Positions 38,199 to 45,492 of a stretch of 64,000 bases of DNA are shown in pieces. Position 1 is the stretch's first letter, and every line of letters begins with the position of its first letter. A program made the position numbers and the translations under genes. This stretch comes from Escherichia phage Lindwurm. The stretch lies in sequence record NC_134264.1. The stretch is one strand, 5' to 3'. The notes under the pieces are model-generated. The model did no database searches. It saw only the letters and a program-made list of their open reading frames with translations, and was not told the origin of the DNA.

Positions 38199-38276
38199 GG
38201 TTCTCAAGCTCATATGGTATGAGCACCCAGCTCATAACTGGAAGGTACGTAGGTTCGAATCCTCGGGGAGCCACCA
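38199..38276 (+). tRNA. tRNA with CAU anticodon (Met/fMet/Ile2)
   Basis: acceptor GGTTCTC/GGGAGCC with G-U pairs, D-arm GCTC-ATATGGTAT-GAGC, anticodon loop CTCATAA; T-stem poorly paired. Confidence 0.55.
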
Positions 38277-38779: not shown

Positions 38780-38856
38780 GGGGGTGTAATCGAATTGGCA
38801 TAGGTACTGGACTTAAAATTCAGGTTTTGTGGGTTCGAATCCCACCACCCCTACCA
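38780..38856 (+). tRNA. class I tRNA with UAA anticodon (Leu-decoding by anticodon)
   Basis: acceptor GGGGGTG/CACCCCT, D-stem ATC/GGT, anticodon stem CTGGA/TTCAG loop CTTAAAA, 5-nt variable loop, T-arm GTGGG-TTCGAAT-CCCAC, A73, CCA. Confidence 0.6.
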
Positions 38857-40576: not shown

Positions 40577-40659
40577 GGGTCGTTAGCCAAGTGGTTTGGC
40601 GGCGGATTGTTAATCCGTGTCGAAAGACAACGTAGGTTCGAATCCTACACGGCCCGCCA
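40577..40659 (+). tRNA. tRNA-Asn (anticodon GUU) with 13-nt extra arm
   Basis: acceptor GGGTCGT/ACGGCCC, D-arm GCCA-AGTGGTT-TGGC, anticodon stem GCGGA/TCCGT loop TTGTTAA, variable region GTCGAAAGACAAC, T-arm GTAGG-TTCGAAT-CCTAC, CCA. Confidence 0.65.
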
Positions 40660-42416: not shown

Positions 42417-42495
42417 AGATCGCTAGCTCAATAGGTTTAGTAGCATCCGACTTTTAATCGGAAGGTTCTGGGTTCGAGTCCCAGGCGATCTACCA
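42417..42495 (+). tRNA. tRNA-Lys (anticodon UUU)
   Basis: acceptor AGATCGC/GCGATCT, anticodon stem TCCGA/TCGGA loop CTTTTAA, T-arm CTGGG-TTCGAGT-CCCAG, CCA. Confidence 0.7.
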
Positions 42496-42953: not shown

Positions 42954-43038
42954 GGGGCTATGCTGGAACTGGTAGACAATACGGCCTTAGATTCCGTAGC
43001 TTAAATGCGTGGGAGTTCGAGTCTCCCTAGCCCCACCA
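42954..43038 (+). tRNA. tRNA-Leu (anticodon UAG), class II
   Basis: acceptor GGGGCTA/TAGCCCC, anticodon loop CTTAGAT, 13-nt variable arm, T-arm GGGAG-TTCGAGT-CTCCC, A73, CCA. Confidence 0.7.
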
Positions 43039-45240: not shown

Positions 45241-45397
45241 TAACCTAAAAGTCAAGATCGATAAACAAAAGAAACGTGTAGAAGTAGAGATTGGTGAAGA
45301 ACGTGTAGCCTTCACCTTTGAATTTCTACAACAAATGGCAATGACAGTTATGACTGATAAGTCTCCTGTTATTGAAAAAGAAATCCCGTTGAAATAA
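45233..45397 (+). CDS. hypothetical small protein (54 aa)
   Basis: ATG 45233 overlaps upstream stop (ATGGCTGA); lysine-rich; below track cutoff. Confidence 0.4.
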   Translation: MADNLKVKIDKQKKRVEVEIGEERVAFTFEFLQQMAMTVMTDKSPVIEKEIPLK

Positions 45398-45405
45398 CGG
45401 GTTCT

Positions 45406-45492
45406 GCTGGGTTGGCAGAATGGTTGAATGCACCTGATTTGTAATCAGGAGGAGTAATCCCACTGCAGGTTCGAATCCTGTGCCCAGCACCA
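45406..45492 (+). tRNA. tRNA-Thr (anticodon UGU) with 15-nt extra arm
   Basis: acceptor GCTGGGT/GCCCAGC, D-stem GCA/TGC, anticodon stem CCTGA/TCAGG loop TTTGTAA, variable region AGGAGTAATCCCACT (GGA-GTAA-TCC hairpin), T-arm GCAGG-TTCGAAT-CCTGT, CCA. Confidence 0.65.

What the first reader, a model, noticed from the sequence alone, without database searches (positions are those of the whole stretch)
45406..45492. tRNA-Thr (UGU) carrying a 15-nt extra arm with GNRA-type hairpin
Acceptor, D-arm, anticodon arm (loop TTTGTAA) and T-arm are canonical. The variable region is 15 nt (AGGAGTAATCCCACT) with a GGA-GTAA-TCC hairpin. This is the same architectural oddity as the Asn tRNA at 40577, which suggests a shared feature rather than a misfold.
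Basis: seen in the sequence. Interest (0 to 1): 0.65.

Follow-up and report, generated by a model that had tools for sequence, protein, structure and literature searches.

The report
Phage threonine tRNA with extra arm
This T5-like phage carries a real threonine tRNA built on the "long extra arm" body plan that textbooks reserve for leucine, serine and tyrosine tRNAs; the same design turns out to be common in phages and in some bacteria, and may let the tRNA escape bacterial defence enzymes that cut the host's version.

Summary
Window 45406-45492 (+) is a tRNA-Thr(UGU) gene of 87 nt including CCA (ARAGORN; Rfam 58.6 bits). Its 15-nt variable region is A-GGA-GUAA-UCC-CACU. This is not a misfold or a lone insertion: the D-loop also has the class II (Ser/Tyr-type) layout.

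The gene belongs to a large family. I collected 123 further distinct sequences from viral contigs and from chromosomes of several bacterial phyla. About 18% of sampled viral Thr(UGU) genes have the arm. All three arm base pairs covary, and 70% of the tetraloops are GNRA. Thr identity marks (G1-C72, C2-G71, UGU) are kept; Ser marks are absent. I found no description of a class II tRNA-Thr in the literature searched.

In T5-like phages this is one of two alleles at one slot. T5 itself has an unrelated 75-nt class I gene with a mutated anticodon stem. PARIS AriB and P2 OLD both cut host tRNA-Thr(UGU) after C40, and the window allele keeps the host-like site. Phage Bas33 carries a near-identical allele as its only Thr(UGU) gene and escaped PARIS once given tRNA-Lys alone.

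I infer, but have not shown, that the class II core shields the tRNA from these nucleases (about 0.4). The plain codon-supply reading remains a serious rival.

The parts
45406..45492 (+). tRNA-Thr(UGU) gene, 87 nt including the encoded CCA; class II architecture
   Evidence: ARAGORN; Rfam RF00005 58.6 bits, model 1-71/71
45415..45431 (+). D-arm: 3-bp stem GCA/UGC with G13-A22 unpaired, loop AAUGGUUGA with two extra nucleotides after G18G19 (U20a, G20b); Ser/Tyr-type class II layout
   Evidence: Rfam alignment shows a 2-nt D-loop insertion. Family statistics: alpha=3, beta=4, 13:22 paired in only 8% of 124 long-arm Thr genes against about 80% in class I tRNAs
45433..45449 (+). Anticodon arm CCUGA-UUUGUAA-UCAGG, anticodon UGU at 45440-45442. 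It keeps C28U29G30 / C40A41G42 and U36AAUC|A41, the host-like cleavage site of AriB and P2-OLD
   Evidence: Sequence; nuclease rules from PMC12409363 and PMC12445682
45450..45464 (+). Variable region of 15 nt: lead A, stem GGA (45451-45453), tetraloop GUAA (45454-45457), stem UCC (45458-45460), tail CACU (45461-45464)
   Evidence: Covariation of all three pairs. The layout lead1+stem3+loop4+tail3-4 is the dominant one, 59 of 123
45465..45481 (+). T-arm GCAGG-UUCGAAU-CCUGU (G49-U65 wobble)
40577..40659 (+). Companion tRNA-Asn(GUU), 83 nt, with the same type of extra arm (GUC-GAAA-GAC-AAC at 40619-40631), G73, and host-like U36AAUC|C41
   Evidence: 524 phage records hold homologues over at least 80% of its length

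Best explanation
This is a functional phage tRNA-Thr(UGU) built on a class II body. A compact extra arm (3-bp stem, GNRA tetraloop, 3-4-nt tail) leaves the core between the anticodon and T arms, and the D-loop has the matching Ser/Tyr-type layout. SHOWN: the gene and its fold; the conservation and covariation of the arm in a large family of phage and bacterial tRNA-Thr(UGU) genes; the retention of threonine identity marks (G1-C72, C2-G71, G35, U36) and the absence of serine marks; its status as one of two alternative alleles at a fixed slot in T5-like phages; and the fact that its anticodon stem differs from the host's only at the 27:43 pair (C-G instead of A-U). It therefore keeps every sequence feature that two Toprim defence nucleases, PARIS AriB and P2 OLD, are reported to need. 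INFERRED: during infection it is charged by host ThrRS and reads ACA (and ACG), which make up 25% (and 11%) of the Thr codons in the window's long ORFs. It takes over when the host tRNA-Thr(UGU) is cut after C40. It resists cutting because the extra arm and remodelled D-loop change the surface between the anticodon-stem 3' strand and the D-loop, which is where the AriB dimer is modelled to dock and where P2-OLD is sensitive to the 27:43 pair. Resistance does not come from stem mutations, which is the T5-type solution. This route would let the tRNA keep a host-like anticodon stem-loop. My estimates are about 0.9 that it is a working class II tRNA-Thr and about 0.4 that the arm and core are what confer nuclease resistance.
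For: Gene and fold. Family: all 111 pattern matches in viral contigs are tRNA-Thr(UGU) of 81-93 nt; about 65 more lie in bacterial genomes; 21 of 114 (18%) of a length-agnostic viral sample are class II. Arm helix: 3 of 3 pairs covary, 88-100% of cells paired, against 25-50% for the whole structure when partners are slid; shuffle test and GNRA enrichment. Class II D-loop. Identity: G1C2 in 119 of 123, discriminator U or A; identity rules from PMC9976931. Allelism: T5 has a 75-nt class I gene with U39G and a U28-U42 mismatch at the same slot; allele counts. Nuclease link: AriB cleaves E. coli Lys(UUU), Thr(UGU) and Asn(GUU) at 40|41, and restoring the UAAUCA site in T5 tRNA-Lys did not restore cleavage, so determinants outside the stem exist; the AF3 model has the second monomer on D-loop 16-17. 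P2-OLD cuts after C28 and C40 of paired CNG motifs, and resistance needs an altered CNG plus loss of the 27:43 pair. In the window, the only tRNAs other than Leu, Ser and Tyr with extra arms are Thr(UGU) and Asn(GUU), two of the three main AriB targets. Both show the same contrast with T5: arm plus host-like 36-41, against short loop plus mutated 39-41. Bas33 is HildyBeyeler. Its only tRNA-Thr is this allele, differing at 2 tail nucleotides, and it has no Lys(UUU). It was rescued from PARIS by T5 tRNA-Lys alone, whereas T7, which has no tRNAs, needed Lys plus Thr. No E. coli genome among 5,426 holds a homologue.
Against: No direct test shows that the arm affects cleavage, and no RNA-protein model could be run here. 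The Bas33 evidence is indirect; the same paper notes unexplained differences between phages in sensitivity to tRNA depletion. The class II form is also the chromosomal tRNA-Thr(UGU) in cellular contexts in Eremiobacterota, Kiritimatiellia, Spirosoma and Acetobacteraceae, so it can exist without any phage-defence rationale. In a broad viral sample, class I and class II Thr(UGU) genes in tRNA arrays keep the paired CNG motif equally often, 58% against 64%, so the either/or pattern is documented only in T5-like coliphages, where it reduces to two alleles per locus. By the published sequence rules alone, the window tRNA would be predicted sensitive to both nucleases.
Confidence: 0.45

Rival explanations
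1. It is an ordinary codon-supply tRNA. It simply boosts ACA decoding for an AT-rich phage. The class II body is an inherited lineage trait kept by folding constraints and has no role in defence evasion.
For: ACA is 25% of Thr codons (12.9 per 1000) in the window's long ORFs, and GC is 38.9%. The same architecture is the chromosomal tRNA-Thr(UGU) in several bacterial phyla, in cellular gene contexts. There is no enrichment of CNG retention in class II over class I genes in the broad sample. The anticodon stem carries none of the published resistance mutations.
Against: It does not explain why the arm is concentrated in Thr(UGU) and Asn(GUU), with Lys(UUU) at 12%, while it is absent from Thr(GGU), Gln, Pro, Asp and Arg(UCU). 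It does not explain why T5-like phages keep two radically different Thr alleles at one slot. It does not explain why Bas33 needed only tRNA-Lys to escape PARIS, which depletes host Thr(UGU).
Confidence: 0.35
2. It is a decoy. The tRNA keeps the nuclease recognition site so that it binds AriB or OLD non-productively and sequesters it, protecting host tRNAs.
For: The host-like site is kept. The PARIS authors raise non-productive complexes as a possibility.
Against: For P2-OLD, a rescuing phage tRNA-Thr did not protect the endogenous tRNA. The decoy idea needs stoichiometric excess. Full conservation of the aminoacylation marks argues for a translating tRNA.
Confidence: 0.07
3. It is a mischarging or recoding tRNA. 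The long arm recruits SerRS, so ACA would be read as serine.
For: SerRS recognises class II shape and arm size rather than the anticodon. The D-loop layout resembles tRNA-Ser.
Against: C2-G71 replaces the G2-C71 that is absolutely conserved in bacterial tRNA-Ser, and the discriminator is A73 or U73 rather than G73. The arm has only a 3-bp stem. G1-C72/C2-G71 plus G35U36 are conserved in 119 of 123 members. The form is the chromosomal copy in some bacteria.
Confidence: 0.03
4. The explanation lies at the DNA level. The extra bases interrupt the target site of one of the homing endonucleases that populate the T5 tRNA region, and the RNA hairpin is incidental.
For: HNH homing endonucleases sit among the tRNA genes in T5 and its relatives. 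The Thr slot is allelic.
Against: This cannot explain compensatory base changes, GNRA enrichment or the co-varying D-loop in over 120 diverse sequences, including bacterial chromosomes.
Confidence: 0.03
5. It is a pseudogene or a mis-drawn tRNA whose real fold has a standard 4-5-nt variable loop.
For: The RNAfold MFE structure is not a clean cloverleaf, and the z-score is only -2.0.
Against: ARAGORN and Rfam agree on the fold. The flanking anticodon and T stems are fixed by covariation, which leaves 15 nt between them. The gene is 92-100% conserved in about 98 T5-like genomes. It has intact stems and an encoded CCA.
Confidence: 0.02

Closest known systems
Class II (long extra arm) bacterial tRNAs: tRNA-Ser, tRNA-Tyr, tRNA-Leu
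   Same: A stem-loop emerges between the anticodon and T arms. The D-stem has 3 bp with 13:22 unpaired, and there are extra D-loop nucleotides after G18G19 (alpha 3 / beta 4, as in Ser and Tyr). The acceptor/T branch is the standard 7/5.
   Different: The anticodon and acceptor identity are those of threonine, not Ser, Tyr or Leu. The arm is at the short end (3 bp plus tetraloop) and strongly GNRA-biased. The standard account limits extra arms to Leu, Ser and Tyr (PMC9976931).
[quoted passage not shown]
   Same: Same phage group, same genomic slot, same anticodon, and the same presumed job of replacing host tRNAs cut by AriB at 40|41.
   Different: Unrelated in sequence. The T5 versions are class I, with 5-nt variable loops and substitutions or mismatches at 39-41 (UAAGCA, UAAGUU, UAAACC). 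The window versions keep the host-like UAAUCA (Thr) and UAAUCC (Asn) and add the arm instead.
Phage tRNA-Thr(UGU) genes that rescue P2-OLD toxicity (tRNA-Thr6, tRNA-Thr21; PMC12445682)
   Same: Phage-encoded UGU isoacceptors that replace degraded host tRNA-Thr(UGU).
   Different: Those resist through an altered CNG motif plus loss of the 27:43 pair. The window gene has both CNG motifs and a full 5-bp stem with a stronger C27-G43 pair.
Allo-tRNAs and other tRNAs with non-canonical cloverleaves (PMC5389517, PMC7609411)
   Same: A long variable arm on tRNAs whose anticodons are not Ser, Leu or Tyr; found in bacteria and phages by metagenome mining.
   Different: Allo-tRNAs have 8/4 or 9/3 acceptor/T branches, Sec-like D-arms and serine or alanine identity. 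This family is a canonical 7/5 tRNA with threonine identity.

Membership tests
tRNA (Rfam RF00005) | Full-length match to the covariance model above the gathering score; cloverleaf with 7-bp acceptor, D, anticodon and T arms | tested here: met
   58.6 bits against 29, model positions 1-71 of 71; ARAGORN call; 18 of 19 consensus pairs covary in the family
tRNA-Thr (ThrRS substrate) | Identity elements: acceptor-stem pairs and anticodon nucleotides, with N73 unimportant (PMC9976931). From my own knowledge of the E. coli system, these are specifically G1-C72, C2-G71, G35 and U36 | tested here: met
   Window: G1-C72, C2-G71, UGU, A73. Family: G1C2 in 119 of 123
tRNA-Thr (ThrRS substrate) | Actual aminoacylation with threonine and use in translation | not testable with these tools
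   Indirect only: Bas33, whose sole tRNA-Thr is this allele, escapes PARIS when given tRNA-Lys alone
Class II tRNA | Variable region of more than 10 nt that forms a base-paired extra arm | tested here: met
   15 nt; 3-bp helix with compensatory changes at all three pairs
Class II tRNA | Matching core: 3-bp D-stem with 13:22 unpaired and an enlarged beta region of the D-loop (20a/20b) | tested here: met
   Alpha 3 / beta 4 and 13:22 paired in 8% of 124 members, the same modal layout as Ser and Tyr; class I tRNAs have beta 2-3 and about 80% paired. Rfam shows a 2-nt D-loop insertion
tRNA-Ser (SerRS substrate) | G1-C72 and G2-C71 absolutely conserved in bacterial tRNA-Ser; G73; long arm whose size is the main determinant (PMC9976931) | tested here: not met
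   C2-G71 and A73 in the window; arm stem of only 3 bp
Allo-tRNA | 8/4 or 9/3 acceptor/T-stem configuration | tested here: not met
   7-bp acceptor and 5-bp T stem, both supported by covariation
Nuclease-resistant phage tRNAs (AriB / P2-OLD evasion by stem mutation) | Substitutions at U39 or A41 (AriB), or an altered CNG motif plus a lost 27:43 pair (P2-OLD) | tested here: not met
   Window: U39 C40 A41, C28U29G30 / C40A41G42, C27-G43 paired; rules
Nuclease-resistant phage tRNAs (functional definition) | Not cleaved by the nuclease, and rescues growth or infection | not testable with these tools
   Only the indirect Bas33 observation. Supplements listing the tested tRNAs are not held

The most novel reading that the evidence does not exclude
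[quoted passage not shown] The tRNA keeps a host-like anticodon stem-loop. Class II tRNA-Thr would then be a fourth natural class II isoacceptor family in bacteria and phages, shaped by an arms race over tRNA.
Probability: 0.3. Interest if true: 0.8.

Novelty: new variant of a known kind. Interest (0 to 1): 0.63.

Why it matters
Textbook tRNA biology restricts the long extra arm to Leu, Ser and (in bacteria) Tyr, plus Sec. Here a canonical threonine tRNA, and alongside it an asparagine tRNA, uses that body plan. It is not a curiosity: roughly a fifth of the sampled phage tRNA-Thr(UGU) genes and the chromosomal copy in several bacterial phyla have it. That raises questions about how ThrRS and AsnRS, both class II synthetases, accommodate an extra arm.

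It also gives a sharp, cheap test in the field of tRNA-targeting antiphage defence. The tRNAs that carry the arm in this phage are two of the three main targets of PARIS AriB, and Thr(UGU) is the preferred target of P2 OLD. Yet these alleles lack every published resistance mutation. If the arm is the shield, that is a new structural mode of immune evasion. It would also explain the published finding that AriB reads determinants outside the anticodon stem.

Tried and rejected
1. RNAalifold on a plain MAFFT alignment of 124 family members recovered the cloverleaf but not the extra arm, because the variable hairpins were out of register. I replaced it with an alignment-free hairpin test and with gapless alignments chosen by variable-region length only.

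2. A blastn search of the 87-nt gene against 5,426 E. coli genomes found nothing, so there is no host or prophage source. The host anticodon arm was reconstructed from the two nuclease papers instead.

3. I looked for the long-arm tRNA in the supplements of both nuclease papers. No supplements are held.

4. Seven literature searches for a class II or extra-arm tRNA-Thr or tRNA-Asn gave no description.

5. I suspected that Bas34's need for T5 tRNA-Asn argued against the arm. Its Asn gene turned out to be a long-arm gene with a chimeric 3' end and a broken acceptor stem that ARAGORN does not call, so it is uninformative.

6. I tested whether class II genes keep the CNG cleavage motif more often than class I genes in phage tRNA arrays. 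They do not, 64% against 58%. The test is weak because the search pattern forced U39-C40 and the hosts are unknown.

7. I considered and rejected the intron, pseudogene, SerRS-mischarging and homing-endonuclease-target readings (see rivals).

8. Two accession guesses (MZ501075, MZ501073) hit other BASEL phages before SelmaRatti was found.

Full report
WHAT IS THERE

ARAGORN finds 21 tRNA genes between 34.4 and 46.5 kb of the window, including tRNA-Thr(tgt) at exactly 45406..45492 on the + strand. Rfam's tRNA model matches 45406..45489 over its full length at 58.6 bits, against a gathering score of 29.

Read directly, the gene is GCUGGGU-UG-GCAG-AAUGGUUGA-AUGC-A-CCUGA-UUUGUAA-UCAGG-[AGGAGUAAUCCCACU]-GCAGG-UUCGAAU-CCUGU-GCCCAGC-A-CCA. 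The bracketed 15 nt (45450-45464) are the variable region: one lead base, GGA, GUAA, UCC, and the tail CACU.

The Rfam alignment treats 11 of these nucleotides as an insertion in the variable region. It also shows a 2-nt insertion in the D-loop. RNAfold keeps the GGA/UCC hairpin even though its minimum-energy structure is not a clean cloverleaf. Among the window's tRNAs other than Leu, Ser and Tyr, these two are the only ones with an extended variable region.

WHERE THE WINDOW COMES FROM, AND THE ALLELE STRUCTURE

The window is a T5-like phage (Demerecviridae). The best match is Escherichia phage phiP4 at 99.7%. About 98 phage records carry this 87-nt gene at 92-100% identity.

T5 itself does not carry it. 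At the same slot, directly after the homologue of ORF T5.059, T5 has an unrelated 75-nt class I tRNA-Thr(UGU) with a 5-nt variable loop. That short allele is the commoner one, with about 310 records at 90% identity or more.

T5's Asn is likewise a 78-nt class I gene. The long-arm Asn is widespread: 524 records, including T4-like phages of Klebsiella, Enterobacter and Erwinia. The two loci assort independently. Phages S132 and Bas32 have a short Thr with a long-arm Asn. No E. coli genome among 5,426 holds a homologue of the long-arm Thr.

THE ARM IS A CONSERVED, STRUCTURED MODULE IN A LARGE FAMILY

All 111 matches that lay inside ARAGORN-called tRNAs were tRNA-Thr(UGU) genes of 81-93 nt, with very diverse sequences. 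The same scan of one genome per bacterial species also hit its limit. About 65 of those hits were real long-arm Thr(UGU) genes.

In total there are 123 distinct sequences besides the window's. The variable region is 11-20 nt, most often 14-15. The commonest layout is one lead base, a 3-bp stem, a tetraloop and a 3-4-nt tail (59 of 123), which is the window's layout.

A stem of at least 3 bp flanks a 4-nt loop in 65% of members, against 16% in shuffles of the same variable regions (maximum 26% in 1000 shuffles). There are 50 different stem sequences. GNRA makes up 73 of 105 tetraloops, against about 3% expected.

For a formal count I chose sequences by variable-region length alone and aligned them without gaps. 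With 15-nt regions (n=30, window included), the arm helix is 88% paired. With 14-nt regions (n=33), it is 100% paired. In both sets all three pairs show compensatory changes (7 to 18 sequences per pair) and four to six pair types each. When the 3' partners are slid, 25-50% of cells across the whole structure pair. The arm helix is as well supported as the anticodon and T stems. GNRA is preferred but not obligatory: phage SE11 has AUAA.

IT IS A CLASS II CORE, NOT AN INSERTION

In 124 long-arm Thr(UGU) genes the D-region has three nucleotides before G18G19 and four after, and 13:22 is paired in only 8%. That is the modal layout of the Ser and Tyr tRNAs in the same loci. Short Thr(UGU) genes and 657 other class I tRNAs have two or three nucleotides after G19 and pair 13:22 in about 80%. 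So the extra arm comes with the matching D-loop.

The identity marks are those of threonine. G1-C2 is present in 119 of 123, the anticodon is UGU, and the discriminator is U or A. The identity rules come from the 2023 review. Serine's G2-C71 and G73 are absent. That review assigns extra arms to Leu, Ser and Tyr only. Two papers on non-canonical tRNAs (a review and the allo-tRNA paper) and seven full-text searches gave no description of a class II tRNA-Thr or tRNA-Asn. I cannot exclude a description outside that library.

HOW COMMON IT IS, AND WHERE

A length-agnostic version of the viral scan returned 21 class II genes, 93 class I genes and 6 non-tRNA hits in its first 120 rows, so about 18% are class II. 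Of the class II genes, 97 of 113 lie in loci with three or more tRNAs.

In bacteria the gene recurs in Eremiobacterota, Kiritimatiellia, Spirosoma and Acetobacteraceae. In Eremiobacterota it sits next to the Tyr-Gly-Thr(GGU) cluster in many MAGs. The flanking genes in two loci I checked are ordinary cellular ones. So the body plan works as a chromosomal tRNA. I could not determine whether it is the only Thr(UGU) copy in those genomes.

The same module also occurs in diverse viral Asn(GUU) genes. One of them has CGGAGUAAUCCCAUC, nearly the window's Thr arm. It occurs sporadically in Lys(UUU), Met/Ile2(CAU), His and Cys, but never in Gln, Pro, Asp, Arg(UCU), Ile(GAU) or Thr(GGU) in my sample. 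That sample was selected for Thr and Asn, so only the ranking among the other isoacceptors is meaningful.

THE DEFENCE CONNECTION

Two recent papers bear directly on this tRNA.

[quoted passage not shown] The T5 versions of these three tRNAs together neutralise PARIS. U39A abolishes cleavage and A41C inhibits it. Restoring the host site in T5 tRNA-Lys does not restore cleavage, so determinants outside the stem exist. An AlphaFold 3 model puts the second AriB monomer on D-loop residues 16-17 (PMC12409363).

P2 OLD: this second Toprim nuclease kills by cutting tRNA-Thr(UGU) after C28 and C40 of paired CNG motifs. Phage tRNA-Thr(UGU) genes rescue. Resistance requires both an altered CNG motif and loss of the 27:43 pair at the top of the anticodon stem (PMC12445682).

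From these papers the host anticodon stem is A27-C-U-G-A31 / U39-C-A-G-U43. The window's is C27-C-U-G-A31 / U39-C-A-G-G43, so only the 27:43 pair differs, and it is stronger. The window's Asn keeps the host's UAAUCC.

T5's class I alleles carry UAAGCA (Thr, with a U28-U42 mismatch) and UAAGUU (Asn). So at two independent loci the T5-like phages show the same contrast: either a normal variable loop with a mutated cleavage site, or a host-like cleavage site with an extra arm.

Neither paper uses the word "variable" in its main text.

One published experiment bears on function. Bas33 is phage HildyBeyeler. Its only tRNA-Thr is this allele, identical except for two tail bases. It has a long-arm Asn and no Lys(UUU). 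Bas33 was rescued from PARIS by T5 tRNA-Lys alone, whereas T7, which has no tRNAs, needed Lys plus Thr. This suggests that the long-arm Thr works in E. coli and survives AriB, but it is indirect.

The apparently contrary case, Bas34 needing T5 tRNA-Asn despite having an Asn gene, is uninformative. That gene is a long-arm Asn with a chimeric 3' end and three mismatches in its acceptor stem, and ARAGORN does not call it.

MECHANISM, WITH SHOWN AND INFERRED STEPS

Shown: a well-formed class II tRNA-Thr(UGU); a conserved arm and matching D-loop; threonine identity marks; a host-like nuclease site; allelism with a mutated-stem class I gene.

Inferred: it is charged by host ThrRS, and it reads ACA, which is 25% of the Thr codons in the window's long ORFs. 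It substitutes for the host tRNA when that is cut. The arm and D-loop, which lie between the two sites the AriB dimer is modelled to contact and next to the 27:43 pair that matters for OLD, are what prevent cutting.

I put about 0.9 on the first block of inference and about 0.4 on the shielding step.

The main rival (0.35) is that this is simply a codon-supply tRNA whose body plan is an inherited trait. In its favour, the form exists on bacterial chromosomes. Also, in a broad viral sample class II genes keep the CNG motifs no more often than class I genes, 64% against 58%. That test is weak because the search pattern forced U39-C40.

The decoy, SerRS-mischarging, homing-endonuclease-target and pseudogene readings are each unlikely, for the reasons given under rivals.

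VERDICT

The gene is already annotated as tRNA-Thr in GenBank relatives. What appears to be undescribed is the architecture, how common it is, and its coincidence with the targets of two Toprim defence nucleases. I rate it a new variant of a known kind, with an interest of about 0.63. The decisive cleavage, rescue and charging experiments are simple and are listed under next steps.

Noticed in passing
window 38780..38856: tRNA-Leu(UAA) of only 77 nt with a 5-nt variable loop, so a class I-shaped leucine tRNA, the reverse of the Thr case. In the viral loci 5 of 24 Leu(UAA), 9 of 24 Leu(UAG) and 5 of 15 Leu(CAA) genes are also short-armed. The window's other Leu (UAG, 42954..43038) has a normal 13-nt arm.
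   Followed up: partly
window 42417..42495: tRNA-Lys(UUU), the third main AriB target, is 79 nt with an enlarged D-loop (D region of 22 nt) and U36AAUC|G41 (A41 changed to G). It has a normal 5-nt variable loop.
   Followed up: partly
window 38199..38273: Rfam finds an additional tRNA (38.2 bits) directly after tRNA-Ser(GCU) that ARAGORN does not list. In T5 and Bas33 that position holds a CAU-anticodon tRNA, annotated Ile2 or Met.
   Followed up: no
L303:14598-14681 (Escherichia phage SelmaRatti / Bas34, MZ501103): The annotated 77-nt tRNA-Asn is a 5'-truncated annotation of a long-arm Asn gene whose 3' end is chimeric. The acceptor strands GGGUCGU / ACCCGCU have three mismatches, and ARAGORN does not call it. 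It is probably a pseudogene, which would explain the published finding that Bas34 needs T5 tRNA-Asn to escape PARIS.
   Followed up: yes
L126, L130, L142, L165, L169, L172, L192, L198, L202, L207, L240 (Eremiobacterota); also Kiritimatiellia, Spirosoma and Acetobacteraceae loci: Class II tRNA-Thr(UGU) is a chromosomal gene in these bacteria. In Eremiobacterota it lies next to the Tyr-Gly-Thr(GGU) cluster, and the flanks are cellular genes. Whether it is the only Thr(UGU) copy was not determined.
   Followed up: partly
viral loci L247, L045, L092, L248, L256, L076, L083 and others: The same compact extra-arm module turns up sporadically in phage Lys(UUU) (6 of 48, e.g. GGACGAAAGUCAUU), Met/Ile2(CAU) (9 of 86), His, Cys, Lys(CUU) and Trp. 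It never appears in Gln, Pro, Asp, Arg(UCU), Ile(GAU) or Thr(GGU). Ile(UAU) genes often show inserts of about 17-27 nt that may be something else.
   Followed up: partly
window 45385..45402: An inverted repeat, CCCGTT ... AACGGG, spans the stop codon of the upstream small ORF and ends 4 nt before the tRNA. It is conserved in T5 even though the tRNA that follows is a different gene. It may be a processing or terminator hairpin that marks the boundary of the allelic cassette.
   Followed up: no
L299:16302-16379 (Escherichia phage IrisVonRoten / Bas32): The tRNA annotated as Lys (AAA) has the anticodon loop CCUUUAA, so C rather than the near-universal U at position 33.
   Followed up: no
L246:7080-7598 (T5 ORF T5.076): A T5 ORF next to the tRNA region is annotated as matching the Toprim sub-domain conserved in primases, topoisomerases and OLD-family proteins. 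This is curious given that Toprim nucleases are what attack these tRNAs.
   Followed up: no
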